Below are positions 27,323 through 61,265 of a stretch of DNA of 64,000 nt, in pieces. The notes under the pieces were generated by a model that searched no databases, was not told the origin of the DNA, and saw nothing but the letters and a program-made list of their open reading frames with translations. The position numbers were made by a program, and so were the translations under genes. Position 1 is the stretch's first letter, and each line of letters starts with the position of its first letter. This stretch comes from Hypanus sabinus (Eukaryota). The stretch covers positions 163,060,001-163,124,000 of the forward strand of contig NC_082707.1 in the NCBI RefSeq assembly GCF_030144855.1, in the 5' to 3' direction.

Positions 27323-28093
27323 AGGAGGCAATTTCAGCTTGGTCTAAGAATTGCTTACTAGTTACTCGTGTTGTTGTCAATACGAAAAAACTAGAGAAAA
27401 TGCTTAAACCAGAAACCATACTTTGCTTGCAGAGGTAATAACTCCGGAAAAAAAAAGACAACCTGGAACAATATCAAGGTACTCCCGAGGTAGTCTTAAC
27501 ACGTGGCTTGTCCACAAGCAAAAAAAAATTAGATCATGCAGCAAAGAGGTTGTTAACGGAGCTACTGACATTAGTTTCTTCAGCAGGCGGTTTAAATGTC
27601 TGGTCGCGCCCGGATGCTGAAGCAGCGCCCTGCGGTTGCTCAAACAGAAACGTGTAATTTACCTCGTCCGCTGTCTGCAGAGGCATCGCTGGTCCATGGA
27701 ATAGAAAGGGTCAATGACTTGCAAAATATTACGTAATGATTGTCAGAGTAACAATTCTTCAATCCTTCAAGATGATCAGTCTCCTGTGACCTGATAGAGC
27801 ACATTTAATATCGGATCAGTTTTCTAGAGAAATACAAACCAATCCTCTACTTTTGCACATCACACTTTCTTGCTCGGGGTTCCAGTAAGCAGCAGTAAGC
27901 TGAAATTTAGCACGGTCCTTTTATGCTGACATGTACTCATGCAGCGTCCTTCAGCTATTCGCCTGATTCCCGAATATGAAGTTCTAGCCGCTAATAGCTG
28001 GGGGCTTCATCATTTTCCAAATGCACAACCATTGAAAGGGCTTTCATAATTATATGTTCCAAAAATAATGAAAAGCCACATTGTAAATGGGAG

Positions 28094-28668
28094 CAACGCA
28101 CACAAAGTGCTGGAGGAACTCAGCAGGTCGGGCAACATCTGTGGAAATAAATAAACAGTCGACATTTCGAGTCGAGACACTTCATCAGGACTGGAAAGAT
28201 TCACTTCATTTCCAGTCCCCATTCCCATTCCGACATGGCCGGTCCATGGCCGCCTCTTCTGCTACTACGAGGCCACTCTTAGGTTTGAGAAAGAACACCT
28301 TTTATTCCGTTTAGGTAGCCCCCAAACTGATGGCATGAAATCGATTTCTCCACTTCCGGTAATTTCCCGTTCCCCTCACCATGGCCACCCTGTTACCTCT
28401 TCTCCTCACCTGCCTATCCTTTCTCTATGGTCTCCTCTCCTCCTTCTCTAGCCCTTTAACTTTCCCATCTATGGAGCCCCAACTTCACCCCCTCCTTTTC
28501 ATCATTCCTTTTCTGTTATCTATCCCCCCGTCCCTTTCCAGTCCTGACAGAGGGGCGCTGCTCCACATGTCGAAATTCAGGTCATTATTCATTTTCATAG
28601 ATGCTGCCTGAACTGATGAGTTCCCCAGGTCAGGTTTTCTAGCATCTGCAGAATCTCTTGTGTTGTTT
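28094..28668 (+). mobile_element. fold-back Penelope insertion (inverted arm 28094-28198 + GIY-YIG C-terminus and 3' end)
   Basis: 10-bp TSD TAAATGGGAG at 28084-28093 and 28669-28678; terminal repeats in opposite orientation. Confidence 0.85.
28156..28193 (-). ncRNA. minimal type-I hammerhead ribozyme motif (Penelope-borne)
   Basis: Minus strand reads CAGTC-CTGATGA-AGTGTCTCGACTC-GAAA-TG-TC-GACTG: intact core, perfect 5-bp helix I, weakened helices II and III; activity untested. Confidence 0.7.
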
Positions 28669-29959
28669 TAAATGGGAGTTGTTTTGATTCTCCATGTCAG
28701 TTCTGGACTGTCGGTGACTATCTCCAATATTCTCTGGAAGAGTATTTCGCAGGATCCCATCTGGTGTAAATAATTTTCCTGCGATCGCTCCTAAACTTAC
28801 CCTCTACAAATCTCGCTTGAAGGCAATTGTTCTTTAAAACAATATTCCTATTTAATTGCTACTTTTTCTTAATATTCATGTTATTTTTAATTTTAAGGGC
28901 ATGTCCTAATTATCTCCTCAACCATCACAAGAATGTGTATCTGTTGCTGAGCGACCCGCCGCCAGTCTTTGGTTTTGGCCGTGTATCCGAACGCGTTTTT
29001 CTTTGTCCCCTTTAGAAGTCATGCGTTTGGTTCTGAAGATCGCCGTTTTTCAGTAGATAAGCACCTTTTGTTTATAAACTACCAAAAAGAACTGACTCTT
29101 TCATAAAACATATGCCTTAACCTTCAATCGAGTTAGAACATAGGCCATTACAGCAGGTCCTTCGGCCCATGGTTTTGTAGACTAAGATCGATCTAATCCT
29201 TTCCTCCTACAAATCCCCCCATTTTTCTAACATTTATGTGCTTATCTAAGAGTTTCTTAAACATCCGTAATGTATCCGCCTCTGCCACCACCCCGGCAGG
29301 ACGTTCCACGCACGCATTGCTTGATCCCGGTGTGCCATCATACTGAAGTCCACATACTTCACGTTCATCCACGCATATCAATACTGGCGCGGAACACTTT
29401 TATAAAAATACCAAAAAAAAACGTGCGAAGAGTGATCGAACCTCAGGCTTGTAGTTTGATTTTCGTATTTAGACAAATGATAGTCTCCATCTAACACGCA
29501 CGATGTGAATTGGTGACTGGTATGCGTTCTGCTACGCGGTTAAATACAAATACAAGCGCTTATTTTCCCATACTCCGTATGTAAGATTTCGTTCACGTTT
29601 CTTGGAAGCAATTTGAAGAACACGAAATCGCCTAGAAGCCAGGTTTTGAACACTGCTACAGTATTAAAACCTTACTAGATCATAGACACACACCAAAACC
29701 ATATTGTGCAATTTGAAGACCTGGTAAACTAAATAAACAGAAAATTATTCTTTGAAGTCCGCTTTTACTCACTACATCAGATTTGTTTCATAGTTTCACT
29801 GCAGAGCCAAAAACCATTTAACCTCTTTCCTGTAGTTTAATTCAAATATGTACTACCTAGTGAAACACAGACGAGTTTTTCCTTAATGGTTGATCATCTG
29901 TTATATATTCCACAGAGCCGAAACGCCACATTTTCAGGACATGACAATCAGATTATAAT

Positions 29960-30315
29960 CATGTTCTCTTCTCGCCACAGGACTCACATTACCAGGTTCA
30001 GGAACAGCTATTGCCCCTCAACCACCAGACTCATGAAGAAATCTTCATTTGCCCCATTATGGAAATGTTCCCACAATCTATGGACTCACTATGTACTCAT
30101 TATCTCAAGCTCTCGATATTTTTTGTTTATTTTTAATCATTCTTCCTTTTTGTATTTGCGGTTTGTTGCCTTTTGCACACTGGTTGAACGCCCAAGTTGA
30201 CGCAGTCTTTCATCGATTCTATTATGGATTTATTGAGTATGCCCACAGGAAAATGAATCTCAGGATTGTATATGGTGACATATATGTACCTTAATATTAG
30301 ATCTATTTTGAACAG
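29960..30315 (+). mobile_element. Rex/Babar-type LINE 3' end
   Basis: RTHITRFRNSYCP and family 3' UTR (GAAAATGAATCTCAGG.TTGTATATGGTGACAT). Confidence 0.75.
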
Positions 30316-31756
30316 TGAAATTTAAATGGAATGAACTGTTACCCTGTTGTATTCACTCAGTGGTATTTCAAGTTAGTAGGTTCAAGTAAATAGTTACTAA
30401 AATGAACTAGTTTTGCCTTTTTTTTAAGAGGAAGGGGGAATGTTAAGCTCTCTTTATTGCTATCGTCTTGCTTTATCAATAATCATTTCTAACGGTTATT
30501 CAAAACCTAAACAGTTTCATACTTCAGCGAGCCTGAGAGATTGGCACAGCTCAGTCTCTCAGAAATAGGCGCCTATGCAGAATAGCACGAATTTCACCGG
30601 CTGTGAGAGTCGATAACGATACGACAAATAAGTAGTTCTGACTAGCGTACCGGCCAGGTTCTATTTTCTTTCACATTTTAACAAGATTTGATCTTTGCTG
30701 ACTCAAAACAAGGTATTACTATTAAAATCATACCGGCTACTCGGGATGAAGCGTATTCCAAATTAAAATCTTAAATATTTTTCATTTTTTATTCGAAAAC
30801 GCCGTCCCCTCACGCGAATGTAATTTATGCTTAACGCCCCTTTGTTACTAGAATATTGCTTACTTCGGTAAAATATGTTCGATTTTTTTCTGCATTCAAA
30901 CACCAAATTTCTGTGCATATAAAATAATGAAGATTGACTTGCAAACGTTCAAATTGCAATGGTATTTTTCTTCTCCATCAACATGAACAATCCTCGCAAG
31001 ATGTTTTAGTAAAGGCATTTTTAAGCTAATGTTTATAAAGGAATATAATATCTGTTCTAGCAATATTTAATGTACCCAGACTGAGAGAGCTCCTTGACCT
31101 TTTATTTTTTTAAAATCAACTGCTATGTAAAAAAATACAGATTTTCGAGGCATCGTTTACAGACTATTTCCAAGTTAAGTTTTATAAAATCTACCATTTT
31201 TAAAATATACAACAGTTCTAGACGGCATGGGAACACAATTTTCCTAATATTCATAATGTACTAAATCATGACCTCTAAATGTGAATTGAGCTGGAGAAAT
31301 GTGTTTCTTTGCGCGACTTGTTACAACACAATGTATTTGGATCAAATACGCAACTACCTTAATGTGAATAAATTATCTCGATCAATACCACCCCCGATTA
31401 GAAAATAGATGATAATTTCCTCCACTGCTCAAACTCTGTACTTCGAGCAGGTTTGATGCAGCATATGAGTTAATAGGTATTTTGGCATGTTTCTCTGCAA
31501 AGTTCTGGGCGTCCTCTGCAGAGCTGATCAAGTGGCTATAATGGATTTCAAAGCGGACCTGGATAATTTGGCTACCGCCTAGGGACCCGTATTGAGTGAT
31601 GCAGGGATTCCGGACAGTGTGTCAGCATCTTTCACTCTGACTGTTAAGATGTTGTGCCTGGACATTGCAAGCTAACAGCTCGGCGCTGAGTATCGCTTTT
31701 TCTAATTCCAGGCTTGTCTGAACTGTGGAAAGCATTGAGATCGGGACTCCGACAAG

Positions 31757-36285: not shown

Positions 36286-36359
36286 TCTGGATATTTAACC
36301 AAGAGTGAATGCATGTCAAAACATTTGCCAATGCATTTCCCTCAGTTTTGTGGTGAAAG

Positions 36360-36979: not shown

Positions 36980-37500
36980 GCATATCAGAACAGTTAATAG
37001 ATCTGCTGCCTCACAGGTTGGTGACCTGGATTTCATCCTCACCTTTGGCGTTGTTGCATGGAGAATAGCATAGATATAGGTCATAGGGTATATTTAAAAC
37101 AGAGGTGGAGAAGTTCTTGATCAGTCAGGTTGTCAAAGGTTATGGGAAGAAGGCAGGAGAACTGGGTTGAGATCAGTCATGATTGAATAGTGGAGCAGGC
37201 TAGATGGCTGAATGGGCTAATTATGCTCCTATGTCTTATGGCCTTATGGAGATTGTGCATTCTCCCTGTGACCACATAGATTTTTTTCAGGTGTTTTGGT
37301 TTTCATCCACATTGCAAAAACATGCAGTTGATGTGTTAGTTGATCACCATAAATTTGCCTCCAGCCGTAGAATCAAGAGGTGTTGATGGGAAAATTGGCC
37401 AAATAAGATGGGTTGGGTCAGGATTAGTGTTAAAAATGGGTGCCTGATGGATTCAGTGGGCCAAAGAGCCTGTATCTGTATGATTCCACAAATCTATGAC
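36980..37500 (+). mobile_element. HE1/V-type SINE interrupted by a CR1 3' tail (37065-37245)
   Basis: TSD ATGGAGA at 37058-37064 and 37246-37252 flanks a CR1 3' end; SINE body resumes TTGTGCATTCTCCCTGTGACC. Confidence 0.75.
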
Positions 37501-38357
37501 TTTAAAAGTATAACATGAAATTAGCTGTTAATTAAAGATCTTTCTCAATTTTCTTTGCATATTTCATTTTAATTATGTAACTGCCAACCAAAAAGCCAAC
37601 ATTTTTATCAATGCATTTGAAAATTTTACAGTAAGTAGACATGGTTTCTGATGTAAGCTAACTAAAATGCCTGACAGTCTGGAAAAAGACAGCTAATCCT
37701 ATGCAGAGAAAGCAATAAACATTTATTAAAGGCTGTACTGACATCTTGTTCTGGGCAGAGTCCCAAATATTGCATTTATGTATTAAGTCTTGTTATTATT
37801 TCAGGTCGATAAGAAATGACTCAGTTTAAATTTTATTTTTAATCTTCAGTCAAACTTGGAGAAGAATTTCTTTCTTGATAGATTTGAAACCGCAAAGGAA
37901 AACAATAGAAAATGGGGAAAAGTTTTCATTATCAGTTTGCTCATCGAGAATTATCCATTCAAAGGATAGATTATTTTTATAATTTCCACCATCTCTGTTG
38001 TATCACATTGCGTGACTTTTGTGCATAACTTAATTCACTTATTTATCTTTCCTTGGCAAAAGCTTCTTTGGCTCCTATACACCTTTTACTAAGTATATAA
38101 ACATCACTTGTTGGCTGATCCTGTTCTGCCTTTGTACAAAATGATTTTACTTAACATATTTTACAGAAAATATATTGACGATGGAGAGCTCCCGAACATA
38201 ACTGACTAAACCCATACAGTGTCAGTGCAGAGTTTGGTTTTTGTTAACTATGCTTAAACTTCCCAGACTTGGGTGAATTCTGATGAGACCCTTAATAGAT
38301 GGTGGAGTAAGCTTCCTAACAGAGAAATAAAAACCTTATGTTGGTGTACAGATACTG

Positions 38358-38598
38358 TACAGATACAGGCCCTTTAGCCCACTGAGTCCATCAGGCACCC
38401 ATTTTTAACACTAATCCTGACCCAACCCATCTTATTTGGCCATTTTCTCATCAACACCTCTTGATTCTATGGCTGGAGGCAAATTTATGGTGACCAACTA
38501 ACACATCAACTACATGCTTTTGCAATGTGGATGAAAACCAAAACACCTGAAAAAAATCTTATGTGGTCACGGGGAGAATGCACAATCTCCATAAGGCC
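38358..38598 (-). repeat. inverted duplicate of 37240-37480
   Basis: About 11 differences in ~240 bp by manual alignment; includes the CR1/SINE junction GGCCTTATGGAGA. Confidence 0.92.
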
Positions 38599-40124: not shown

Positions 40125-40365
40125 AATTCATGAAGACACAAGAGACTGTAGGTACTGGAATCCAGAGGTAAAAACAAACTGTTGCTGCAACTCAAGACAG
40201 GCAACATCTGTGGAGGCAGAGAGAAAGTCAGCCTTCTGTGTTTCAGCCCAGATGTAGCATCTCAAACTGAAATGTTGACTATCCTTCTCCCCACAGATGC
40301 TGCCAGCCCTGTTGAATTCCTCTAGCAGTGTGGTCTTTGTCCAACATGTGCTGTCTTCATGAATT
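40125..40365. mobile_element. old fold-back Penelope mini-insertion
   Basis: Degenerate terminal repeats in opposite orientation; ends AATTCATGAAGACA ... TGTCTTCATGAATT. Confidence 0.6.
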
Positions 40366-40908: not shown

Positions 40909-41805
40909 CCATAACCCTTGGTTCTGAAAGTTAATGCAAAATAACCTATGACTCTTGAAGCAAGTTAATGAAGAATATCACAGTACTTCTAAAACCCAAA
41001 TTAATAGATATTATTATAGTTTCTAGATCCAGCAAATAATGAGATATGACTAGTGACTTCTGAAGCCTGTGTTAGTGTGACATGACCCATTATTCCTGAT
41101 GTCTTGTTAGAATGACAGGACTCATAACTATTAAAGACTGTGCCACTGTGACGTGACCTACAGCTTCTGTATACTGTGTAAAGCGACATGATACGTGCTT
41201 CCTGATGTCAGTAGAACATGTCCAACAGTTCCATTATCCTGTGTTAATTTTACCTTCTGGTGAAGCCTGAGATATAAAAGAGCGACCACTGGACCCGAAG
41301 TACGTTTTTTTTCTGTGGCATAATGCCTAGTTCCTGATGCCTATGTTAGTGGAGCAGTCCCATGATTGCTAAAGCATGAGATTTACTGAAGCATGAGACA
41401 TCACTACAAATTTAGATTTTGCAATCTGCCAACTTTATGAAAATGCAGATATCAGTTTAAAGTCACAGTCTTACACTCAAATTGAAGTTAAAAGTAACAA
41501 TGCGTTATTTTCTGCTATTTAGCTGAAGAATGCCTAATTAATTTAAGAGTTGATTTCAGCATGTATATTCAGACATCTAAATGTAGTCTGGTGTGAAAAT
41601 TTATCTAAATTTCTCATTCTATATCCATTACATATGTTTTCGCTGTTTATACTCAACAGACAAAATATAACCACCTCACTCTGTATGGGTTCATGCTGTA
41701 GCCTGTCTTTTGAAAATTCCAATAAGAAAACTCACTAACTGCAGAGTAATAAAACAATATACAGGTATTGTTACTGTAAAAAAACAGTTGATTTAGTCTA
41801 GTATA

Positions 41806-42419
41806 TAGTAACAAAATGTAGATGCTTTGCAAGTTTCTGTAAAGTTTCAAAGAAACAATTCAAGCCTGTTCATATAAAGTTATAATTTTTATGAAAATTC
41901 TCAGAAATGACTGTAAAACCCACCTATTAACATTGTGATATATAGTCCAAGACTATGATGTATAATGTTACAAGATATAAGAAAATGTCAATTCTAAACA
42001 CCATTAAAGGTTTGTAAATAGATCTCAACTCCACCAACTGGAGAGGGAGGAAGGGGGTTCAGTGGACAGGTTGGATTAGCACTCATAAAAATAGCCTGGG
42101 GAGGAGGATCAAGTCAGCTCAGTGATTTGGAAAGTAACCGGGGTGAGGGAATAGATTGTAGTGCACCTCCTACTCTGGTAGTGTCCCTGGATTGCACAAT
42201 GTTACCCTGGGCCATGTGAAAATACTTCGGCATATACATGGACAAAGTCTGAAAATGAACTGTAAACCAACAAAAATTGCCATTCAGAATTTAGTTATAC
42301 CTCTTCCAATATTTTAACACCAAAAGTGGTGCAGAATGGAACAGATATTGTGACACCCAGATGGAACAGATGTTGTGAAACTTTACAGAAACTTGCAAAG
42401 CAACTACATTTTGTTACTA
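41806..42419. mobile_element. unclassified non-autonomous TIR element (~44-bp TIRs)
   Basis: TAGTAACAAAATGTAGATGCTTTGCAAGTTTCTGTAAAGTTTCA (41806-41849) is the reverse complement of 42376-42419 with one mismatch; TATA on both flanks. Confidence 0.75.
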
Positions 42420-42529
42420 TATATTATATGCCAGAGATCACTGGCATTTTCCCCTGAATTAGGCTCTTTTTTCAGCATGTTTTGGACTGTCTTAGGCTGG
42501 GAATGCGACAGTGGACTGTGTCCAAAGCA

Positions 42530-43505
42530 CAAACACGAGGAAATCTGCAGATGCTGGAAATTCAAACAACAACAACACACACAAAATGCTGGTGGAACAC
42601 AGCAGGCCAGGCAGCATCTATAGGGAGAAGCACTGTCGACGTTTTGGGCCGAGACCCTTCGTCAGGACTAACTGAAAGGAAAGATAGTAAGAGATTTGAA
42701 AGTAGTGGGGGGAGGGGGAAAAGCGAAATGATAGGAGAAGACCAGAGGGGGTGGGATGAAGCTAAGAGCTGGAAAGGTGATTGGCGAAAGTGATACAGAG
42801 CTGGAGAAGGGAAAGGATCATGGGACGGGAGGCCTCAGGAGAAAGAAAGGTGGGGGGAGCACCAGAGGGAGATGGAGAACAGGTGAACAACTAAATATGT
42901 CAGGGATGGGGTAAGAAGGGGCATTAACAGAAGTTAGAGAAGTCAATGTTCATGCCATCAGGTTGGAGGTTACTCAGCCGGTATATAAGGTGTTGTTCCT
43001 CCAACCTGAGTTTGGATTCATTTTGACAATAGAGGAGGCCATGGATAGACATATCAGAATGGGAATGGGACGTGGAATTAAAATGTGTGGCCACTGGGAG
43101 ATCCTGCTTTTTCTGGCGGACCGAGCGTAGGTGTTCAGCGAAACGGTCTCCCAGTCTGCGTTGGGTCTCACCAATATATAAAAGGTCACACCGGGAGCAC
43201 CGGACGTAGTATACCACATCAGCCGACTCACAGGTGAAGTGTCGCCTCACCTGGAAGGATCCTTTCCCTTCTCCAGCTCTGTATCACTTTCGCCAATCAC
43301 CTTTCCAGCTCTTCGCTTCATCCCACCCCCTCCGGTCTTCTCCTATCATTACGCATTTCCCCCTCCCCCCACTACTTTCAAATCTCTTACTATCTTTCCT
43401 TTCGGTTAATCCTGACGAAGGGTCTCGGCCCGAAATGTCAACAGCGCTTCTCCCTATAGATGCTGCCTGGCCTGCTGTGTTCCACCAGCATTTTGTGTGT
43501 GTTGT
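42530..43505 (-). mobile_element. young fold-back Penelope (Neptune-type) insertion with open GIY-YIG domain
   Basis: 13-bp TSD TGTGTCCAAAGCA (42517-42529, 43506-43518); ~250-bp inverted arms; ORF 42924-43250 VVYYVRCSRCDLLYIGET..RFAEH..HF...H. Confidence 0.93.
43407..43444 (+). ncRNA. minimal hammerhead ribozyme motif (sister copy 42633-42670, minus)
   Basis: TAATC-CTGACGA-AGGGTCTCGGCCC-GAAA-TG-TC-AACAG; sister copy TAGTC-CTGACGA-AGGGTCTCGGCCC-AAAA-CG-TC-GACAG. Confidence 0.7.
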
Positions 43506-44589
43506 TGTGTCCAAAGCATACTGCTCCAATTTAAACAAACAGGACCCCATAATGGTATAAATAACCTGTAAAGATTTTGAGAGGTATTGGCTAAATTTTT
43601 AAGTCTTTCCGTTTTTATTCAAAGCAGTTTCTTTAGATTTAAATTCAACAATTAGACCTTGAACTCAAGAGCTATCACAATGCAGAGCAGAGAATCACTG
43701 TTGCTGCATTCCAATCAGCTGACATTAATCACATGATCTGATCATCTTAGATAAACAGATGAATATCTACTTCATTAGACTGTTTATTTCTGAGAACGGA
43801 CAAGCGAATGTGTTTACCATTATCCAATCAAATAAATAGCAATCAATGCAAATAGTTAATTTATAATAACTGGAGAGCTCACTTTCCACAAAATACCACA
43901 GTAACATTTGCATTAATTTTGAATTTAAAATTAATACACTTTTTACATGGCATTTTTGGAAGAACGTCTAAAATTTTTGACATTTTATAATTTTCACTCC
44001 TAATACTGTAGCTTTATTATATATAAATGTTTTATTTATTCAGGAAACACCATGAATCAAAGAGGACTAATGACAATGTCATCACATTTAAGAAATGTCA
44101 CGGAATCATAGAATAATACAATACTGAACATAGCACATCGTCCTAATTCCTTGGTGCATCTATTTGATCTTATCCAGGGCCACATATTTGTTTTTCTTTT
44201 CCAATACGTATCCAAATATCTTTTGAACATTTCTATTGAATTTGGTCCCATTTGGTCAGTGTATACCAGATCACAACAATTCACCATATAAAATATGTTT
44301 CTCATGTCATCCAAGTGCCAGCTAATTTGTCCTGGTTGTTTCCAAAAGCTTTCCCACACTGATGTAGGCCATTTGCCTATGTTTACCAGGACTATTCTTC
44401 ACTTTTTAAATGGGGGAATAACATTGCAGATATTCTATAAAGAACTAAAAGATTGTGATCACAGCCTCTGCAATTTCCATCTCTTCTTCCTTCAGCTATG
44501 TAGCCTACAATAGACCTAGAATGCAGGTACAATAATGACATTTAAAAGACATTTAGACAGGAATCAGAATTGGAATTATTTTATTGTTT

Positions 44590-47500
44590 ATTATCTTTTA
44601 ACTTTCTAAGTAGTTAAAGGTGTTAGTGAGCTTTCTTGGCTCTCTCGTCAATGTGGGTGGACCACAACAGGCAATTGGTGATGTTCATTCCTTGGAACTT
44701 GAAGCTGTTAACTCTCTCAACCTCAACATTGTTGATGTAGACAGGAGCATGCGCACCATCCTCCTTCCTGAAGTCAATGATCAACTCTTTTGTTTTGCTG
44801 ATATTGAGGGAAAGGTTGTTGTTGTGACACAGGTTACTCTTGGTCTCCTTCCTGTTCTCTAACTCATCATTATTTGTGATACAGCCCACAATGATGGTGT
44901 CACCTGCAAAATTGTAGGGGGAGTTAGAGCAGATTCTGGTCACACAATCTTCAGTGTCCAGGAGGTGGTGTGGCTCTACTAGTAAAGAATGATATCAAAA
45001 CAACAGAAAGGTGTGACACAGGATCGGATGATGTTGAATCCTCATGGGTTGAGTTAAGAAACTGCAAGGGTAAAAGGATGTTGATGGCGGTTATATACAG
45101 GCCTCCCAACAGTGGCTGGGAGGTGGACCACAGATTATAACAGGAAATAGAAATGGCGAGTCAAAGGGGCAATGTTAAGGTAGTCGTGGGAGATTTTTGC
45201 ATGCAGGTTGAATGGGAAAATCAGGTTGGTAATGGATCTCAAGAGAGTGAGTTTGTTGAATACCTAAGAGATGGCTTTTTAGAGCTGTTTGTCATCGAGC
45301 CTACTAGGGGATCAGCTATACTGGATTGGGTGTTATGTAATGAACTGGAGGCAATTAGGGAGCTTAAAGTAAAAGAACCCTTCAGAACCAGTGCTCAAAT
45401 ATGATTGAGTTCAACTTGAAATTTGATAGGGAGAAAGTAAAGTCTGATGTAGCAGTACTTCAGTGGAGTAAGGGAAATTAAAGTGGTGTGAGAGAGGAGT
45501 TGGCCAAAGTAAATTGGAAGGAGCTGCTGGCAGGGATGTCAGCAGAGCAGCAATGGCGTTCATTTCTGGGGAAAATGAGGAAGGTGCAGAACATATGTAT
45601 TCCAAAAATGAAGAAATACTCAAATAGTAAAATTGTACAATCATGGACAACAAGGGAAGTCAAAGCTATTGTAAAAGCAAAAGAAAGGGCATACAACAAA
45701 GCAAAAGTTAGTGGGAAGATAGAAAATTGGGAAGTTTTTAAAAACATACAGAAAGCAACTAAAAATCATTAGAAGGGAAAAGATGAAATATGAAAGCAAG
45801 CTAGCAAATTATAATCAAGGATGATAGCAGAATTTTTTTTTAAGTACTGTATGTTAAAAATAAAGGAGAAATGAGAGTGGACATAGGACCACTAGAAAAT
45901 GAGGTTGGAGAAATGATAATGGGGACAAGGAGATGGCTAATGAACAAAATGAGTATTTTGCATCAGCCTTTACTGCATTAGACACTAGTAGTGTGCCTGA
46001 TGTAGTGTGTGAAGGAAGACATGTAGGTGCAGTTACTATTACAAGGGAGAAGGTGTTCAAAAAGCTGAAAGACCTAAAGGTACATAAATCACCCAGACCA
46101 GATAAACTGCACCCTAGGGTTCTGAAAGAGGTAGCGTTAGAGATTGTGGTGGCATTAGAAATTATCTTTCAAAAATCATCGGACTCTGGCGTGGTGCCAG
46201 AGGACTGGAAAACTGCAAATATCACTCCACTCTTTAAGAAAGGAGGAAGGCAGCAGAAAGGAAATTATGAACCAGTTAGCCTGACCTCAGTGGTTGGGAA
46301 GACGTTAGAGTCGATTGTTAAAGCTGAGGTGATGGAGTACTTGGTGACACAGGACAAGCTAGTACAAAGTCAGCATGGTTTCCTTCAGGGAAAAACCTGC
46401 CCGACAAACCTGTTGGAATTCTTTGAGGAGATTACAATTAGGATATATAAAGGGGATGTAGTGGATGTTGTATATTTGTACTTTCAGAAGGCCTCTGACA
46501 AGGTGCCACACATAAGGCTGCTTACCAGGTTAAGAGCCCATGGTATTACAGGGAAGTTACTAACATGGTTAGAGCATTGGCTGATTGGTAGGAGGCAGCG
46601 AATAGGAATAAAAGGATCCTTTTCTGGTTGGCTGCCAGTGATGAGTGGTGTTCCGCAGGGGCTGGTGTTGGGACCTGTTCTTTTTATGCTGTAAATAAAT
46701 GATTTAGATGATGCAATAGATGGCTTTGTTGCCAAGTTTGCAGATGATACAAAAATTGATGGAGGGGCAGGTAGTTTTGAGGAAACAGGTAGGATGCAGA
46801 AGGACTTAGACAGATTAGGAGAATGGGCAAGAAAGTGGCAAATGAAATTCTGTATAATGTTGGAAAACGCATGGTCATGCACTTTGGTAGTAGAAATAAA
46901 TGTGCAGACTATTTTCTACATGGGGAGAAAATCCAAAAATCCGAGACGCAAAGGACCTTGGGAGTCCTTGTGCAGAACACCTTAAAGGTTAACTTGCAGG
47001 TTGAGTCAGTGGTGAGGAAGGCAAATGCCTTCATTTTAAGAGGTCTAGAATACAGGGGCAAGGATGCTGAGGCTTTATAAGCCACTGGTAAGGCCTCACC
47101 TTGAGTACTGAGAACAACTTTGGGCACCTCATCTTAGAAAAGATGTGCTGGCATTGGAGAGGTTCCAGAGGAGGGTTAACAAGGAAGATTCCAGGAATGA
47201 AAGGGTTATTATACGAGGAACATTTGATGGCTCTGTGTCTGTACTTGCTGGAATTTAGACGGGGGATCCCATTGAAACCTTTCGAATGTTGAAAGGCCTA
47301 GACAAGTTGATGTGGAAAGAATGTTTCCCATGGTGGGAGAGTCTAGGACAAGAGCGCCCAGCCTCAGGATAGGGGGGTGCCCTTTCAAAACAGAGATGCA
47401 GAGAAATTTCTTTAGCCAAAGGGTGGTGAATTTGTGGAATTGTCACATGCAGCTGTGGAGGCCAGGTTATTGGGTGTATTTAAGGCAGAGATTCATAGGT

Positions 47501-51345: not shown

Positions 51346-52751
51346 CATTGCTTTGCTGTGTCTCTGTATCACCAGAGCCCTCTTAACTGCTCTTTGAAAG
51401 TGAGTCCATGACAACTGGGGAGTTGGTGGAAGGTGGGAGCTGGGGGAGGTGAAGATCGGGATGATAGCAGTTGGTATGTGGAGGTGTGAATGGTAGGTTC
51501 AGGGCAACACAAAAATAAGCTGTTAACTTTTGGGTAAAGATGTAGAAGATACAGAAAAGAATAGTTCTTAAACTACTGTGACAACACTTGTAATAAAGGG
51601 ATAATTGATTGACCAGCTTCTGTCTAAATGCAGCAGCCCAGTTGTTACTTGAAATCTGTGGGTTTCAATTTCAAAGGATATTAGTCTTGACAACCCTTTA
51701 GCTTTGGTTAGGCAGCTTGATTAGTGGAAGCACAGTCAAATTTGATTGCAATGGACCGCCCCCAAATCCTTACATAGACAAAGCCAGTTTCACATAACAA
51801 CTTTGCCTAGTTGACACTCATACACTGACAGAACACAGCAGTCAGGCATGGTTTGTTCACTTCAAGACTAGTTTCTGCAAATTCTCAAGATACCAGGGAT
51901 TAGAACTTTACAAGTTTTCTGGTAAGTTTTAACAATCCATTTTTTACTGTATAGAATATGCTAACAGTGTCTAGTAAAACAATTCCTAGCCGAAAATCTT
52001 AATCTTAGATTTGTTGAATTCTGACCTGCTGAAAACTATGATTTATAATTCCATTCTGCACTCGTTGTTATATTTATATCATGAGACGACTTTTTTGAAT
52101 GTGTTTGCCAGTGCCCACGATGTTACCAAAAGAGTCAGCCTGTTACCTCTTAATATGAGTGCAAGATCAAAATACATTGTAATACTTTGTAATTACTTTG
52201 AAAGTATGCCAAGTAAACCTGACTAAGAAAACAAGGGGAGTAACTAACAACTGGAAAAAAAGTGCCTGATCAAGATAGTTGTAAAGAGCAGATCATGCAA
52301 ATGCATTTCTGAAGGGCAAGAACTTCAGGCATTTACCAAATGGTTTTGATTACCATGCTGCCTACATATCACACAAGGTCGGAATTATCAAATGCTGCCT
52401 TTAAATTTTTAATCAGCAGTACAAAGAAAATTTAAGCTGTATATCCCTTTCTTGAAAATTCTGAAATAAAATTAGAAATTAATATTTCTGTGGCTAAAAT
52501 TATTGAAGAGAGAAAATCAAAATAGCAATGCCCGGTCAATTCCAAAATGATCCAGATTACACTGTCTGTCATTCAACATGTAAAATTATATCAAGATCAG
52601 AGAAGAAGCAACAGATGGACTACCCTCATATATGGATTTATTAAATTAATTGTAAAATTCAGACGTTAGGACACTTAGGACCTAATAGGAATAAAGCAAT
52701 GTTTGACAGTCTAAATCCTGGAAATAAGAATTCCAAGTGGTTAACTGGCAA

Positions 52752-52943
52752 CACACACAAAATGCTGGAGGAACAGCAGGCTAGGCAGCATCTAAGGGAA
52801 AGAATACAGTCGAAGTTTTGGGTCAAGACCCTTAAGAAGGACTTGTCTCTTCTCCATAGATGCTGCCTGACCCGCTGAGTTCCTCCAGCATTTTGTGTGT
52901 GTTGCTTAGATATCCAGCATCTGCAGATTTTCTCGTTTATGAT
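52752..52943. mobile_element. 192-bp fold-back Penelope mini-insertion
   Basis: 14-bp TSD TGGTTAACTGGCAA (52738-52751, 52944-52957); two opposed terminal repeats, no coding sequence. Confidence 0.88.
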
Positions 52944-53314
52944 TGGTTAACTGGCAAGCTAGAGTAAAGGTCAACTGTCCATTGCCTGAATAAATTGCTT
53001 GTATTTTGTATACTACTTCAAATAATTTTTCAGTAAGTACTTTCTACAGTGTATAAAAAAATATATTGCCTAGAAGCTAAACTTCATGCTTATTTGATAA
53101 GCTAAGAGGGTCCTACGTTTAACATTATTTGCCCTCTCAAGTGCCAGCCCTAAAAGAAAATGGGAAAAAGTAACATATAAAAACTTGATAGTAATTTTCA
53201 TTCTCATGACTACAATAAGGTTCAGCCACTCCCAGTGGTAGCTGCTGTAACTTTGCACTTGAAAGGTGGGGAAATGTGTCACTGCCTTAAAAACTCTCTC
53301 TACCAATACAGTAA

Positions 53315-54215: not shown

Positions 54216-54249
54216 GCATGTGTATAGTTGAATAACGATAAACTTGAAC

Positions 54250-56620
54250 TCTATATTCTAAAAGGCAGAATGATGCAACTGTGGCTGACAAGAGAAGTCA
54301 AAGCCAACATAAAAGCAAAATGGAGGGCATATAATAGAGCAAAAATTAGTGGGAAGTTAGAGCATTGCGAAGCTTTTAGACACCAATAGAATGCAAATAA
54401 ATAAGCCATAAGGAAGGAAAGGATAAAATATAAAGGGAAGCTAACCAATAATATCAAGAAGAATACAAAAGTTTTTTTCAGATTTACAAACTGTAAAAGA
54501 GAGGTGAGAGTAAATACAGACTGCTGAAAAATGATGCTGGAGAGGTAGTTATAGGGGACAAGGAACTGGCGGGTGAGTTGAATAAGTACTTTGCATCAGT
54601 CCCCACTGTGGAAGACACTAACAGTATGCTGGAAGTTCGAGAGTGTCAGGAGGCAGAAGTGAGTGCCATTGCTGTGACAAAGGAGAAGGTGCTTGGAAAG
54701 CTGAAAGGTTTGAAGGTAGGTACGTCAGATGGACAACACCCTAGGATTCTGAAGGAGGTAGTTGGAGATATTGTAGAGGCATTAGTAATCACTAGATTCT
54801 GGTGTAGTTCTGGGGGACTGGAAAATTGCAAATGTCACTTCACTCTTCAAGAAAGGTGTAAGGCAGATGAAAGGAAATAATAGGCCTGTTAACCTGACGT
54901 TTTGGGGTACTTGGAGACACATGATAAAATAGGCCAAAATCAGCATGGTTTCTTTCTGGGGAAATCTTTCCTGACAGATCTGTTGGAATTCTTTGAGGAA
55001 ATATCAAGCAGGATAGACAAAGGAGAATCAGTGGATGTTGTGTACTTTTCTGATCGTCTGCTGGTGACAAATTGTGCTTCACAGGGGTCAGCGTTGAGCC
55101 CGTTTCATTTTACGTTATATATCAATGATTTGGATGATGGAATTGATGGCTTTGTGGGCAAATTTGAGGATGTTATGAAGATAGGTGGTGGTGTGGGTAG
55201 TGTTGAGGAAGCAGGAAGGTTGCAGAAGGACTTAGACAGACTAGGAGAATGGGCAAAGCGGCAGATGGAATACAGTGTTGGGAAGTGTATGGATATGCAC
55301 TTTGGTAGATGAAATAAAGGCTATTTTCTAAATGGGGAGAAAATTCAGAAATTAGATATGCAAAAAGCCTTGGGAATCCTCATGCAGTATTCCCAAAAGG
55401 TTAAATCGCTGGTTGAGTCGATGGTAAAGAAGGCAAATGCAATGTTAGCATTCGAGAGGCCTAGAATACAAAAGCAAGGATACAATGTTGACACTTTATA
55501 AGGCATTGGTCAGACCGCACTTCAAAGTAAATTTATTACCAAAATACATATATGTCACTAGGTTCTCATTAGGTTTGATTTTATCATTTAAAAAAAAATT
55601 GGATAGGTATATAGACAGGAAAGGAATGGAGGGTTATGGGCTGAGTGCAGGTAGGTGGGACTAGGTGAGAGTAAGTGTTCGGCACGGACTAGAAGGGCAT
55701 AGATGGCCTGTTTCCGTGCTGTAATTGTTATATGGTTATATGTTATCAAACGCAAACATGAGATTCACTTTCTTGTGGGCATACTCAATTAGTCCATAAT
55801 AGAATAATAATCATAATAGAATAAATGAAAGACTGCGCCAATCTGGGCATTCAACCAGTATGGAAAAGACAACAAACTGTGCAAATACAAAAATAAAAAA
55901 TAAATAATAATAATAATAATAATGATAAAATATGCAATGAATGTTGAGATCATGAGATGAACAGTCCTTGAAAGTGAGTCCATAGGTTGTGGGAACATTT
56001 CAGTGATGGGCCAAGAGAAGTTGAGTGAAGTTATCCCCTTTGGTTCAAGAACCTGATGATTGAGGGGTAATAACTGTTCCTGAACTTGATTACCTATGAA
56101 CACTTGGAATAGCATGAGCACTTTTGGGCCCCTTATCCAAGAAAGCATCCACTGGCATTGGAGGAGGTTCGCAAGTTTGATCCTAAGAATGAAAAGAGTT
56201 GATGTATAAGAAGTGTTTGATGGCTCTGGGCCTGTACTCACTGGAGTTTAGAAGAATGAGGGGGGCATCCAATTGAAACTTCTCGAATATTGAATGGCCT
56301 AGATAGAGTGGATGTTGAGAGAATGTTTCCTGTAGTGGGGGAGTCTGAAACTAGGATGTCACTTTAGAACAGTGATGTGGAGGAATTGCTTTAGCCAGAA
56401 ACTGGTGAATCTGTGGAATTCATTACCACAGACAGCTGCAGAGGACAAATCATTGGGTATATTTACAGGAGGTTGATAGGCTGTTGATTAGTAAGGGCAT
56501 CAATAATTACAGGGAGAAGGCAGAAGAATGGGATTGAGAGGGATATATCTGTCTTGATGGAATGGCAGAGCAGAAATTCAATGGGCTGAATGGCCTAATT
56601 TGCTCCTATGCCTCATGGTC
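54250..56620 (+). mobile_element. internally deleted CR1 containing a nested Rex/Babar 3' end (~55520-56090, minus), which itself contains a CR1 tail (~55575-55742)
   Basis: CR1 ORFs 54578-54880 and 54902-55312; CR1 sequence breaks at CAGACCGCACTT and resumes at CACTTGGAATAG (~56100). Confidence 0.8.
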
Positions 56621-56629
56621 TTTTGGAAA

Positions 56630-56876
56630 GCATTGTCTGCATCAAATCAAATCAATGACGATTGCCCTGGGTAGCTCGCAAGTGTTGCCACTCTTCTGAT
56701 GCCAATATTGTATATCGACAATTTACTCACTAATGGTAACGGATATGGGAGGAAACCAGAGCACCCGGAGGAAACACACATAGTCACAAGGACAATGTAC
56801 AAACTCTTTACAGACACAGATCTTATGTCAGGGTTCTGTAAACAGTGGCTCTAACTGCTATACTACCATCCTGCCC
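56630..56876 (-). mobile_element. tRNA-derived SINE (HE1/V-SINE-like)
   Basis: GGAGGAAACCAGAGCACCCGGAGGAAAC core; matches 57995-58270. Confidence 0.75.
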
Positions 56877-56884
56877 AAACCTCA

Positions 56885-56956
56885 CGTCCAATGTGGAGCT
56901 CAAACCCATGACCCTGCGATTAAGAATCTCATACTCTACTGATGGGGTAGCTGGGC
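56885..56956 (-). pseudogene. tRNA-Lys(CTT) pseudogene
   Basis: Minus strand GCCCAGCTACCCCATCAGTAGAGTATGAGATTCTTAATCGCAGGGTCATGGGTTTGAGCTCCACATTGGACG is colinear with vertebrate tRNA-Lys-CTT with ~13 changes (several CpG transitions, damaged T-loop); no CCA. Confidence 0.85.
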
Positions 56957-57994
56957 AGTGAGCCGAGTTAGTATTTACTCAATACATATTGAATACTAAG
57001 GTATAATATTAATTTCTGGGCAGTTGCATTCATAAGAATTAGGAGCAGGAGCAAGCTATCTAGCCTGTTGAGCCTGCCCCACCACCAACAGTAAAACCTG
57101 GAGCCAAGTCAGGTTATTTTGTTTCCCAATCCCTGTTTCATTAAGTAGTAACATCTTATAAATATGGTCAATTTGCATGACTTTACATTTCTGCCTCTCC
57201 ACTGCCTCTTTACTGCCAGAAAATTTATCCAACACCAATTCCAAATGAGTCATAATTTCCTTCAAACAAACGTTGGAGACTGGTGGTCCTATCACAGAAT
57301 GCCTCCCATTTACCAATTCCAAGTACCTCCCTAGTTCACATCTCAGTTCACAACCTCTGACCCCTGGCTGAGTTTCCAGACCAAACCAATATTCTCCATG
57401 TTATAGAGAGCATCTCTAAATTATAGATAGCTATAATTTCTTCCCTGTAATATTATGTTAATTTTCCATTTGTGTTATAACACACGCTTTTGCTGCCTTA
57501 AGAAAATACTATTCCAATGTTCTCCTGACATGCTTTCCAATTCCTAATCCTTCCAATCTGTAACCTGATTGCCTGTATTCTAACCTCTACCAAATCCCTC
57601 TTACCTCTGTGACAGCCAATTACACTGGCCGTCATCCTCATATTTAAATAATTTATGGTCTCTCACGTTCTATATCTGTAACATTCTTCTGAGCTCCAAG
57701 AATCCTGATTTCCTGCAACCCTTGCTGCAAGTACATACCTACTGTAATTGCCTTAAGCCAGGTAGGTCCTACTGTAAATCTGCCTTTCATCTTTCAGTTC
57801 AAAACACAGCTTAAAATTGTTCTTTTTGCCTGGCTTTTAGTCACCCAATCTGGCCTTTTTCAGCTTTGTTTGATTACACCTCTATTTTACTACATAAAAG
57901 ATACATTACAAATACCTATTTTTGCTGTACTTACACTCCCATGTTTTAGAGAATCAAATGCATATGTAATGTATGTAAAGAAAACATTTAAAAG

Positions 57995-58270
57995 ATTAGT
58001 TTTATTTGTCACATGTACATTGAAACATCTAAGCATACAGTGAGATCTGACATCTGCGTCAAATCAAATCAGCAAGGACTGTGCTAGACAGCCCACAACT
58101 GTCTCCACATTTCCGGTGTCAATGTTGCATGCTCACAACTTCCCAAATCTAACCATACATCTTCAGAATGTGGGAGGAAATCGAAGCTCCCGGAGGACAC
58201 CCACGCAGTCACAGGAAGAACACGCAAACTCCTTACAGACAGCGGCAGGAATCGAACCCCAATTGGTAAT
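57995..58270 (-). mobile_element. tRNA-derived SINE (HE1/V-SINE-like)
   Basis: GGAATCGAACCC (B-box, reverse), CCCGGAGGACACCCACGCAGTCAC core, LINE-like tail. Confidence 0.78.
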
Positions 58271-59812
58271 CATTTCAATCAACCCTTGTTCAAAATATTT
58301 AACTCTGACCTTACTTGTGCTTTGTTAAATGCAACGTCGCAGGCGCAGTCTAAATAATACACAGAAATGAATATTACATGATTGCACAAACTGCAATCGC
58401 ATTAAAAAGATGAACGAATAGCCCACTTGTGCAGCTAATTCTTCCTAAATGTAGAATCAGACGAGAAAGTTTCCTCAGTTAAATATGACCACATTGATTA
58501 AGCGTTGTAGTATCAATCGGTTCCCTATTCCAAACCAACCGATAAAAATAGCCGTTTTAAAGCCTTTTTTTCTGAGTGTAATCCAATGGACAATGAGTTA
58601 AGGACATTTTAATTTATAATGATGTGTATTAGGTGAATTAGGTTGATAGTATAAATTATCATATGAATTAAGGGCAAAATGCAGTTTAAAATCAGATCAC
58701 TATTTTGTTTCTTTGTATTAAAAAGATGAACTCAATCTAAGTGTACGAATTTCTATTTTCTGAGATGAACTCAGTCTAAGTGTATATATTTTAAGTCATG
58801 TCTGTGCACCAACTTATAGTGAATTCAGCCGTTTTATGGAAAGTTAAGATTTATAATTGAGGAAGCAATGAATGCTTCAGAGTATTTTTCATTTGCGATA
58901 TTTTGTAATACATCATTTGGAACCAAGAGCCAAAATAGAATTTCAGCATTGACCCCTTTACATTGTTTTTCTGACTGTTGAATCTTGAAAGTCACTTCAT
59001 TCTTCTTGAAATATGTGACATTGATTTTAGTTTTGATAAAAAATATTCTTTCTTTGATGCCTTTTCATAGTAATGAAGCAGTTAATCAGATACCTGTATT
59101 TAATTAGAATGATATTCTTCAAATCATCTCATCAATTAATTGTATTACTTTTACTGCATTTGTTTTGAACTGATGAAAATAATGACAGCATAGAACCACT
59201 AGGCTGATATAGAATGAAGATTGTATTGCTCTGAACTGTTTGCTGCTGTTGATAAACTTGGCAACTCTGTTGAGCAACTATAGGTGTTCAATATTCTTTC
59301 GGGATTCCAACCCACTTCTGTATTTGACAGCTTGAATCATGCATTTAATATAACCCAGATGTAGGAGAAGCACCTAATGTGCAAGAATGGGCTACTAGTC
59401 CCTGTTATAAGAAAAAAACTAAGCTTCACTTTACTGTAGATTCATGTCATACACCAATGTTATTGCAGTAACAACACTTCGAAAACATTTCTTTGGCTCC
59501 AGATGTTTTAGGAAGCTGCTGGAAAGGGGTTTTTTTTAAATCTAATGCATTGTTTTAAGAACTAACTTTTTCCTCATTTTACTGTAAAGAGAATTTATCA
59601 GCAAAGTAGCATATTTCAGAATTATAGAGGCAGAAATTTGAACATAAATTCTGCATCACGGATTTTGTAAAATTAAAGAAACTGAGCCTGTATAAATTAC
59701 AATGAATCAAGTTCCTAATGAAGTGAGAACATAAGAAGTAGTGAACAATCCTCAAACCATACCTTATTGTATTGGTAACACCACAGATATTGCACAATCC
59801 ATACTAATCCAA

Positions 59813-60852
59813 AGTTCAAAGAACATTCATTATCAAAGTATGTACAGAATACTTAATGCAACCTTGAGGTTCGTCTCCTAAAAGGCAGTCACAAAACAAA
59901 GAAACCCAATAGAACACATAAAACAAAAGACCATCACACACCCAACCTAGAGAGAAAACAAAACAAATTGTGCAAACAATAAAAATAAGCAAATAACATT
60001 CAGAACTGAAGTTCATGAAGCCAAGCATCACTACAGCCAATTCAGAATTCCATTAGTTGCGTGTCACAATTAGTGATGTGTAAACCTCATGGAGCAGTGA
60101 GTTGATCTGGCTTGTGCCTTGCCTGAACCCTGATACCCTGACCATTTCTGACCTGACCTGGCCTGCTGGTTAAATTATCCAAATCTCATACCATTCCTCG
60201 CTCTCAGACCTGGGCCCTGTCTCTTTGATACACTTTTGGGTCCAGGTGCTGCTGTCTCGATTCAGTCCATACCTGATCTTTCCGGTTCAACTCAGCACTT
60301 AAATTGATCAAACCTCAGGCCTTTGCTCACTCACAGGCCTGGACCTTGTCTTGACTCCGCCTCACCTCGTTTCTGCCGCACTGAATTGCCCCATGTCTGC
60401 TCCAGCAACGACCATACATCAGTTCATTCCCCGCTCTCTGGCCCAGACTAGTCATAACTGTCCTATTCCTCCGGGATTTCAGTTCACATCACAAAAATGC
60501 CACATCGTACTGGCCGTTCAAAAGTTCAATTCCGACAGGGAAGTTATAGGCTATTGTTTGCAATGATCGTTTACCAGAAATAGTGTAATTAATAAAGTAT
60601 TTAGAAAACACAGACAAAATGCTGGAGGATCTCAGCAGGCCTGGCAGCACCTATAGAAAAAAGTACAGCCGAGACATTGATTGTATTTTTTTCCCATTGA
60701 TGATGCCTGGCCTACTGAGTTCCTCCAGCACTTTGTGTGTGTTGCTTGGATTTCCAGCATCTGCAGATTTTCTATTGTTTGTGAAAGTATTTAGATGTTT
60801 GCTTTAGTTTTATTGGCCACCAGCAAACAGTCACTGAGATTCACCTGCGCCA
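59813..60852 (-). mobile_element. non-coding repeat with Rex/Babar-like 3' tail (probable non-autonomous retroelement)
   Basis: Plus strand begins AGTTCAAAGAACATTCATTATCAAAGTA, like the other Rex/Babar tails; body lacks RT similarity; 5' boundary uncertain. Confidence 0.45.
60606..60783. mobile_element. 178-bp fold-back Penelope mini-insertion
   Basis: 12-bp TSD AAAGTATTTAGA (60594-60605, 60784-60795); opposed terminal repeats. Confidence 0.88.
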
Positions 60853-60879
60853 CATAGGTATTAGATTTTTCTTAAAGAA

Positions 60880-61265
60880 GTGATCACGATTCCAGTGGCC
60901 CAATTTCAATCCTGACCTCTGAGGCTGACTGTGTGGGAGTCCCGTGACAATATGGGTTTACTCTTGGAGCTCTGCTTTCATCCGGCATTCCAAAAACATT
61001 TAGTTTGCAATTGTAAATTGCTCTTAATGAGTATGTGAATGGTAACACGAGTGAATCTGCAGATGCTGGAAATAAATAAAAACACAAAATGCTGTCTGGC
61101 CTGCTGAGTTCTGCCAGTATTTTGTATTTTTATGTTGAATGGTAAAATCTCTTTATGGGAATGTGATAAGAATAAGATGGCATCAATATACATGTGTGCT
61201 TAATGATTGACAGAACTCAATGAGCCAATGACCATGTTTCTGTGCTGCACATCTCTGACTCTAAT
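60880..61265 (+). mobile_element. HE1/V-type SINE carrying a 90-bp Penelope fold-back (61046-61135)
   Basis: SINE body is continuous across the insert; 10-bp TSD TGAATGGTAA (61036-61045, 61136-61145). Confidence 0.75.

What the first reader, a model, noticed from the sequence alone, without database searches (positions are those of the whole stretch)
28084..61145. At least five TSD-flanked fold-back Penelope insertions with one shared asymmetric architecture (90-976 bp)
Seen in sequence: inserts at 28094-28668, 42530-43505, 52752-52943, 60606-60783 and 61046-61135 each have a clean 10-14-bp TSD. Each consists of two element 3' ends pointing outward. One arm carries the full terminal tail (...AATCTGCAGATGCTGGAAAT...); the other begins ~30-40 nt further in, at the CAACACACACAAAATGCTGG motif. 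The internal junction differs in every copy, and some TSD ends overlap the element start (GCAA at 52748-52751). Established: Penelope elements can have inverted pseudo-LTRs and a short 3' tail. Inference: these look like MITEs but are independent retro-integration products, with both target nicks priming reverse transcription (one at the tail, one at a fixed internal site) and the two cDNAs then joined. The size series down to 90 bp would be a natural record of that mechanism. Older examples lie at 40125-40365, 61760-61900 and 9430-11020.
Basis: partly seen in the sequence, partly recalled or inferred. Interest (0 to 1): 0.72.

Follow-up and report, generated by a model that had tools for sequence, protein, structure and literature searches.

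The report
Penelope insertions primed from both strands
These mirror-image inserts are real stumps of a very common Penelope-type jumping gene in a layout already described for this class, and nearly all pair one tailed end with one tail-less end, which suggests both cut DNA strands start copying, likely on the same RNA.

Summary
All five insertions and their 10-14-bp TSDs are exact. They are 5'-truncated ends of an endonuclease-bearing Penelope-like element (RT plus C-terminal GIY-YIG). The 'inverted pLTR, tail on one side' layout is published (PMC3846280, PMC8557442), and this scan noted it before in at least six other genomes. They are not MITEs: 111 different junction pairs in 125 copies, and the window's 976-bp junction is unique genome-wide. 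An empty site with one TSD is inferred in another organism. The added value is mechanistic. Tail-plus-core fold-backs number 2,024, tail-plus-tail only 11, although single-arm copies use both starts (29 tailed, 18 not). Either arm can be longer (22:22). Both ends show primer microhomology and the same target motif outside each nick. The two arms share template variants without conversion. Best reading: twin priming at two start windows (about 0.75), likely on one RNA (0.5). This fits in vitro data (PMC11167929), which found no coupling between strand and start site.

The parts
28084..28093 (.). Left TSD copy (10 bp; right copy 28669-28678) of insertion 1
28094..28197 (-). Insertion 1, tail-less arm (older subfamily); element sense on minus strand, 3' end at 28094
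28202..28668 (+). Insertion 1, tailed arm, degraded, reaching into the GIY-YIG-coding end; 3' end at 28668
42517..42529 (.). Left TSD copy (13 bp; right copy 43506-43518) of insertion 2; single copy inferred at the empty site in run X6
42530..43259 (-). Insertion 2, tailed arm (young subfamily): tail, pLTR with hammerhead-like core, GIY-YIG C-terminus at 42927-43256
43258..43505 (+). Insertion 2, tail-less arm; 2-nt overlap at the junction; junction unique in the genome
52738..52751 (.). Left TSD copy (14 bp; right copy 52944-52957) of insertion 3; last 4 nt match the template upstream of the arm start
52752..52833 (-). Insertion 3, tail-less arm
52847..52943 (+). Insertion 3, tailed arm (about 13-15 extra nt at the junction)
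60594..60605 (.). Left TSD copy (12 bp; right copy 60784-60795) of insertion 4
60606..60668 (-). Insertion 4, tail-less arm
60669..60783 (+). Insertion 4, tailed arm
61036..61045 (.). Left TSD copy (10 bp; right copy 61136-61145) of insertion 5
61046..61094 (-). Insertion 5, tailed arm, ending just past the internal start site
61089..61135 (+). Insertion 5, tail-less arm; 5-6-nt overlap with the tailed arm
40127..40363 (.). Older fold-back with exact 8-bp TSD; right arm found by blastn, left arm by eye only
61747..61931 (.). Older probable fold-back, both arms weak, borderline 10-bp TSD
9430..11020 (.). Old tailed arm and tail-less arm around a nested RT fragment of another element; no TSD found
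14903..16675 (.). Old copy with tail at both ends and RT-coding interior; borderline TSD; exception to the one-tail rule

Best explanation
These are single-event, TSD-flanked insertions of a Penelope-like retrotransposon, likely made when both target DNA ends prime reverse transcription on what is probably one RNA, one end at the tail start and the other about 40 nt further in. Shown: one 9-18-bp TSD, arm geometry, near-strict tail plus no-tail pairing, shared template variants, microhomology and a common flank motif at both ends. Inferred: (1) the GIY-YIG endonuclease, probably as a dimer, nicks both strands about 13-14 nt apart, leaving two 3' overhangs; (2) each overhang anneals by 0-4 nt to one of two start windows, each used once; (3) the RT at the inner site would run ahead and the RT at the tail would displace its cDNA; (4) each cDNA stops on its own, often near position 135-139, the likely RNA 5' end; (5) host end-joining links the two cDNA 3' ends with microhomology or short fillers. 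If only one end primes, an ordinary single-arm copy results.
For: Genome-wide, in matched size windows: core-core 2,165, tail-core 974+1,050, tail-tail 11. Single-arm copies in the core-selected sample are 29 tailed and 18 tail-less, so independent start choice would make about 40% of tailed fold-backs tail-tail. In 50 fold-backs chosen without regard to tail: 45 TN, 5 NN and 0 TT by script; three of the NN carry partial tails by eye. TSD found in 125 of 142 young TN pairs and 0 of 13 young TT pairs. Tailed arm longer in 22, tail-less longer in 22, of 47 pairs sampled without a size limit; lengths not correlated (rho 0.19, p 0.19). Primer-template microhomology: mean 1.41 vs control 0.42 (95 tailed ends) and 1.55 vs 0.47 (103 tail-less ends), no shuffle of 1,000 reaching it. 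The same bias lies outside both nicks: T at +3 in 77 and 72 of 125, G at +5, T at +6 to +8. Arms share minority alleles 56 times vs 11 expected, rare ones 14 vs 2.2; haplotypes agree in 73 of 93 vs 37 expected, while CpG decay is not shared (7 vs 6.6; 4 vs 5.2), which argues against later conversion. Tail-less arms end at 135-139 more often than tailed arms (31 vs 15, p 0.026). In vitro, a Poseidon protein cleaves and extends both strands from two start sites that bound the tail, and is predicted to be a dimer (PMC11167929).
Against: One RNA needs strand displacement over up to about 1.3 kb (L303), untested for any PLE RT here. 20 of 93 pairs disagree at two diagnostic sites, against roughly 6-7 expected from background transition rates (my estimate), although several of these share other rare alleles. 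For 7 long tail-less arms, the own partner was not the closest relative by identity (lengths differ, inconclusive). Few tailed arms stop at the inner start (5 of 125 end by position 66). PMC11167929 saw no start-site difference between strands. Shared alleles are also predicted by the hairpin model and by two RNAs from one locus. Window copy 14903-16675 has two tails and a borderline TSD. Two copies prime about 250-280 nt beyond the tail (L289, L290). Most fold-backs came from one contig and 78 of the 125 were size-selected.
Confidence: 0.5

Rival explanations
1. Both target ends prime, but on two RNA molecules from the same source locus held in an asymmetric dimer that imposes one tail start and one inner start. 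This is still the first reader's dual-priming model.
For: No strand displacement needed for long overlaps (L303, L151, L031). Excess haplotype discordance, 20 of 93. Predicted protein dimer (PMC11167929). All dual-priming evidence applies equally.
Against: Needs an extra rule to forbid tail-tail pairs (11 vs 2,024). Rare alleles are shared between arms, so both RNAs must nearly always come from one locus. Does not predict that tail-less arms reach 135-139 more often.
Confidence: 0.25
2. One cDNA or antisense template folds back and primes itself to make a hairpin; the endonuclease then trims the tail from one side on integration (ideas raised in PMC3846280 and PMC8557442).
For: Explains shared alleles and junction overlaps (>=4 nt in 26% vs 11% simulated). 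True hairpin products exist (L130, L201).
Against: A hairpin grown from the tail-primed cDNA cannot make the tail-less arm longer, seen in 22 of 47. The two true hairpins run through the tail into inverted flank and lack a TSD. Tail-less starts spread over about 12 nt with primer microhomology, not one cut site. Random trimming does not predict the 31 vs 15 asymmetry at 135-139.
Confidence: 0.15
3. A master copy with an inverted 5' pLTR is transcribed as one hairpin RNA and RT jumps across the stem, so the tail-less end is simply the RNA 5' end.
For: Many pairs have similar arm lengths near 110-140; one pair of copies 32 kb apart shares a junction (L219, L220).
Against: Arm lengths are not correlated; tail-less arms reach 1.5 kb and more (L303) and occur alone with TSDs; the same nick motif and microhomology mark the tail-less end.
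Confidence: 0.06
4. An amplified MITE-like or SINE-like fold-back family that moves as a unit.
For: 8 junction pairs recur, up to 6 times; L219/L220 share junction and rare alleles.
Against: 111 distinct pairs in 125; recurrent ones sit on palindromic microhomology and span different subfamily alleles; window junction found once with up to 2 mismatches; TSD 9-18 bp; sizes 90 bp to 4.3 kb.
Confidence: 0.03

Closest known systems
EN+ Penelope-like insertions with inverted pLTR and one-sided tail (Pen2a_Av, PMC3846280; overview in PMC8557442; D. virilis Penelope in PMC2377424)
   Same: Inverted 5'-truncated copy, 30-40-bp tail at one end only, one TSD around the unit, RT plus C-terminal GIY-YIG, partial tandems.
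   Different: Here most units are doubly truncated stumps near 200 bp and number in the thousands, which allows counts. Those papers suggest self-priming or endonuclease resolution; the counts here favour priming from both target ends.
Poseidon of Anolis (PAc) in vitro TPRT, PMC11167929
   Same: Both strands nicked and extended; two RT start sites bounding the tail; starts internal to an RNA that continues into the ORF (seen here in tandem copies).
   Different: The paper reports no strand difference in start site and no primer homology, and does not model inverted copies. Here the starts are near-strictly paired and show 0-4-nt microhomology. The first in-frame ATG here lies about 40 nt past the tail, whereas in PAc the starts lie inside the ORF.
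L1 twin priming (as described in PMC2912911)
   Same: Both target ends prime, microhomology at both ends and the inversion junction, normal-length TSD, two cDNAs joined.
   Different: The second primer site is confined to a window about 40 nt from the first, and both arms copy the same RNA segment; in L1 the second site is variable and the segments mostly do not overlap (non-overlap recalled). About half of sampled arms are in such pairs (51 of 100) against about 30% of L1 insertions in that paper; the units differ.
MITEs
   Same: Short, palindromic, TSD-flanked, very numerous.
   Different: Asymmetric ends, variable TSD, variable size and centre, retro-element coding sequence in long arms.

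Membership tests
EN+ Penelope-like elements (C-terminal GIY-YIG) | RT followed by C-terminal GIY-YIG endonuclease | tested here: met
   L073 and L074 carry RT then GIY-YIG frames, broken by frameshifts; Pfam RVT_1 E 1.3e-5 and GIY-YIG E 1.7e-4 (window arm), both just under curated cut-offs.
EN+ Penelope-like elements (C-terminal GIY-YIG) | DKG motif upstream of the RT core | tested here: met
   ADKGG seen in the L073 frame; motif named as diagnostic in PMC8557442.
EN+ Penelope-like elements (C-terminal GIY-YIG) | pLTR from partial tandems, tail continuing into the ORF 5' end | tested here: met
   L289-L292 show pLTR, tail and ORF start in one piece.
EN+ Penelope-like elements (C-terminal GIY-YIG) | Inverted 5'-truncated copy with 30-40-bp tail at one end and a TSD | tested here: met
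EN+ Penelope-like elements (C-terminal GIY-YIG) | Hammerhead ribozyme in the pLTR | tested here: inconclusive
   Core boxes and a palindromic helix III seen by eye at about 43410-43445 (core motif recalled; helix description from PMC4209133); no Rfam match; cleavage not testable.
Penelope/Poseidon clade | RT phylogenetic placement | not tested
   No tree was built; the clade name is a recalled resemblance.
MITE (DNA transposon derivative) | Symmetric terminal inverted repeats | tested here: not met
   One arm is about 40 nt longer in nearly all copies.
MITE (DNA transposon derivative) | Fixed TSD length and uniform size and interior | tested here: not met
   TSD 9-18 bp; 111 junction pairs in 125; window junction unique.
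L1-type twin priming | Microhomology at both target ends and at the inversion junction | tested here: met
   junction overlap excess is moderate and 28 of 125 junctions hold 6 or more extra nt.
L1-type twin priming | Second primer anneals at a variable internal site, giving two largely non-overlapping segments | tested here: not met
   Second start is confined to about 12 nt and arms overlap in template; the non-overlap feature of L1 is recalled.
L1-type twin priming | Both cDNAs copied from the same RNA molecule | tested here: inconclusive
   Same source haplotype favoured; one molecule vs two from one locus cannot be told.

The most novel reading that the evidence does not exclude
Penelope-like elements use a programmed, ordered twin-priming reaction: a dimeric RT-endonuclease cuts both strands at mirror-image sites about 13-14 nt apart and launches two RTs in tandem on one RNA from two built-in start sites, the rear RT peeling off the front cDNA. 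The inverted pLTR and the one-sided tail, unexplained hallmarks of the class, would be the direct product of that one reaction.
Probability: 0.45. Interest if true: 0.62.

Novelty: new member of a known kind. Interest (0 to 1): 0.38.

Why it matters
How Penelope-like elements form inverted pLTRs with a one-sided tail is called an open question in PMC8557442, and the in vitro paper PMC11167929 leaves the later steps unvalidated. Thousands of short copies in this 4.04-Gb genome give counts that separate the models and yield one sharp bench test (two barcoded RNAs). For annotation, these palindromes should be filed as PLE stumps, not MITEs. The architecture itself is not new, and this scan has reported it and the dual-priming reading in other genomes.

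Tried and rejected
DNA-similarity search of the own genome returned nothing because the query is too common; patterns were used instead. Pfam found nothing in three degraded window frames. Rfam gave no hit in the window or the pLTR. RNA folding of the pLTR-tail region was only weakly better than shuffles (z -1.98) and was not used. Post-insertion conversion between arms was rejected because CpG decay is not shared. The idea that single-arm copies hide tiny partner arms held for only 1-2 of 34 with TSD, plus L301. An earlier AI note's claim that junctions mark the hammerhead cut was not reproduced: 13 ends at positions 105-108 vs 13.3 under a uniform null, but the sample is size-selected, so this is inconclusive. 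Nine of the 11 tail-tail hits were extended: 3 resolve to outer tail plus no-tail ends with a TSD, 2 to a tail arm plus a start inside the ORF with a TSD, 4 have no TSD. Arm-to-arm identity of long copies was uninformative. The nick motif in 34 single-arm copies looked similar but was not tested statistically. Three further runs did not bridge the site. The empty-site joint was not seen as a listed joint. Paper searches: Penelope + twin priming gave 3 papers, none on PLE mechanism by title or abstract start; searches found no paper stating a coupled dual-priming model. Subscription papers (e.g. [quoted passage not shown]
Full report
OBSERVATION. The five inserts, their coordinates and exact TSDs of 10, 13, 14, 12 and 10 bp are in the sequence. 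Random position pairs reach such a TSD score in 1 of 150 trials. Each has a tailed arm and a tail-less arm pointing outward. Of the older examples only 40125-40365 has an exact TSD; 61760-61900 is borderline and 9430-11020 has none. A copy at 14903-16675 has tails at both ends and a borderline TSD.

IDENTITY. The window lies in a 4.04-Gb genome, probably a cartilaginous fish (recalled, untested). The long arm of the 976-bp insert encodes a GIY-YIG C-terminus. Long copies elsewhere carry an RT frame with the DKG motif followed by GIY-YIG (Pfam scores just under cut-off). L073 is a 4.3-kb unit (with a nested LINE) with the same layout and a 13-bp TSD, so the series runs from 90 bp to near full length. 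In tandem copies the tail continues into the ORF start, so both starts are internal to the RNA. A 32-nt tail word of the young subfamily has 11,318 exact hits and a 37-nt core word 10,082.

SAMPLE. I parsed loci from these searches, mostly from contig C1. One search found 212 adjacent inverted pairs in 289 sequences: 174 tail plus no-tail (140 with TSD), 16 tail-tail (0 with TSD), 15 no-tail pairs (3 scored, two being repeat artefacts and one a tail with a deletion) and 7 ambiguous. This mix is shaped by my searches. Most statistics use the 125 young TN pairs with TSD; 17 young TN pairs without TSD and 15 old TN pairs with TSD were left out (the old ones were used only for TSD length and the flank table). 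Two of the 125 (L130, L203) proved complex and were removed only. 47 of the 125 were sampled without a size limit.

NOT A MITE. TSDs span 9-18 bp, 76 of 140 being 13-14. There are 111 junction pairs in 125 copies; the 8 recurring ones sit on palindromic microhomology and mix subfamily alleles. The window's 976-bp junction occurs once with up to 2 mismatches. One exception: L219 and L220, 32 kb apart with different TSDs, share junction and rare alleles, and only these two hits exist. In run X6 one contig piece starts at 43509 after 120 unplaced letters, and variants of the same depth (6.4) delimit 42400-42519; the skip of 989 equals insert plus one TSD. This empty site is inferred from tables 2, 3 and 8; the joint itself was not listed.

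COUPLING OF STARTS. In matched size windows the genome holds 2,165 core-core, 2,024 tail-core and 11 tail-tail fold-backs (exact-match counts). Among 50 core-core hits: 45 TN, 5 NN, 0 TT by script; three NN have partial tails and one TN call (L155) is doubtful. Of 100 core-selected arms, 51 are in inverted pairs, 47 are single (29 tailed, 18 not) and 2 ran off the locus. Independent choice would give about 40% tail-tail. Nine of the 11 tail-tail hits were extended; none proved a simple two-tail unit with a TSD.

BOTH ENDS BEHAVE AS PRIMERS. The tailed arm is longer in 22 and the tail-less arm in 22 of 47 (54 vs 64 in all 125). Microhomology between TSD end and template is about three times the control on both sides, though a third of ends have none. 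Just outside each nick the same bias appears: T at +3 (77 and 72 of 125; background 0.30), G at +5, T at +6 to +8. Junction overlaps of 4 nt or more occur in 32 of 125 vs 11% simulated, and 28 have 6 or more extra nt, several looking templated. Two true hairpin products run through the tail into inverted flank and lack a TSD.

ONE TEMPLATE SOURCE. Arms of one insertion share minority alleles 56 times vs 11 expected and rare alleles 14 vs 2.2 (0 of 2,000 shuffles). CpG decay is not shared, so this is inherited, not converted. Against a strict one-RNA reading, 20 of 93 pairs differ at two diagnostic sites, more than background rates predict, and long arms gave no support. Inner ends pile up at 135-139 (46 of 246 arm ends) and 118-124; tail-less arms reach 135-139 more often (31 vs 15). 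A tandem copy begins at 138, which suggests the RNA 5' end (inference; the same idea is in an earlier AI note).

MECHANISM. Dual priming has my confidence at about 0.75 (one RNA 0.5, two RNAs 0.25); hairpin self-priming 0.15; template jump 0.06; MITE 0.03. All enzyme steps are inferred.

LITERATURE SEEN. PMC11167929: main text and part of methods (parts 1-2 of 4); supplements not read, and its Fig. S1-S2 on cut and start sites may bear on coupling and on the target motif. Passages only: PMC3846280, PMC8557442, PMC11722881, bioRxiv 2024.12.14.628481 (73), PMC4209133, PMC2377424, PMC9977147, PMC2912911. Search listings only. The architecture is published; I found no coupled dual-priming model in these searches, but key subscription papers are not held.

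EARLIER SCAN NOTES. Nine notes in at least six genomes describe the same layout, several with the dual-priming reading (8 shown). They are not independent support; my reading was recorded before I saw them.

VERDICT. Real feature, known architecture, new member of a known kind. The near-strict start pairing, symmetric nick motif and shared template make a standing question testable. Interest 0.38.

Noticed in passing
G000:C1:74.26 and 74.30 Mb (L219, L220): Two fold-backs 32 kb apart with different TSDs share the junction and rare alleles; only these two in the genome. Local re-mobilisation of a whole unit or conversion between copies.
   Followed up: partly
L130, L201: True hairpin products: the inverted arm copies through the tail into an inverted duplicate of the flank, no TSD.
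   Followed up: partly
L289, L290: Fold-backs whose second arm starts about 250-280 nt beyond the tail inside the ORF 5' region, with exact 12-bp TSDs: rare use of other start sites.
   Followed up: partly
L301 (G000:C1:1.45 Mb), L039: Long tail-less arm (near full length in L301) joined to a tailed arm of only about 9-15 nt before the TSD; extends the size series of single arms far below 90 bp.
   Followed up: partly
L016 (G000:C1:4.667-4.670 Mb): Head-to-tail array of about 11 copies of a 57-bp piece of the pLTR core.
   Followed up: no
window 37240-38598: Another long inverted repeat (arms about 360 bp, 92-96% complementary), not matched to the Penelope references; perhaps a DNA transposon remnant.
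   Followed up: no
window 41799-42426: 51-bp inverted repeat pair, 96% complementary, 526 bp apart, next to insertion 2.
   Followed up: no
window 3431-4348: Degenerate inverted repeats about 850 bp apart, MITE-like.
   Followed up: no
window 1137-2025 and 8064-8263: Further Penelope arms: a 0.9-kb tail-less arm without a visible partner, and two same-strand pLTR pieces in tandem.
   Followed up: no
window 42530-42600 and tandem copies L289-L292: The tail is an imperfect duplicate of the inner start (both begin CAA(A)CAC and lead to ATGCTGG), and its sense strand holds GTTT tracts resembling the target flank bias; untested.
   Followed up: no
window 18651-20870, 45903-46694, 54497-55312, 6492-7097: Fragments of other non-LTR retrotransposon ORFs (CR1/L2-like RT and esterase-like ORF1, names recalled).
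   Followed up: no
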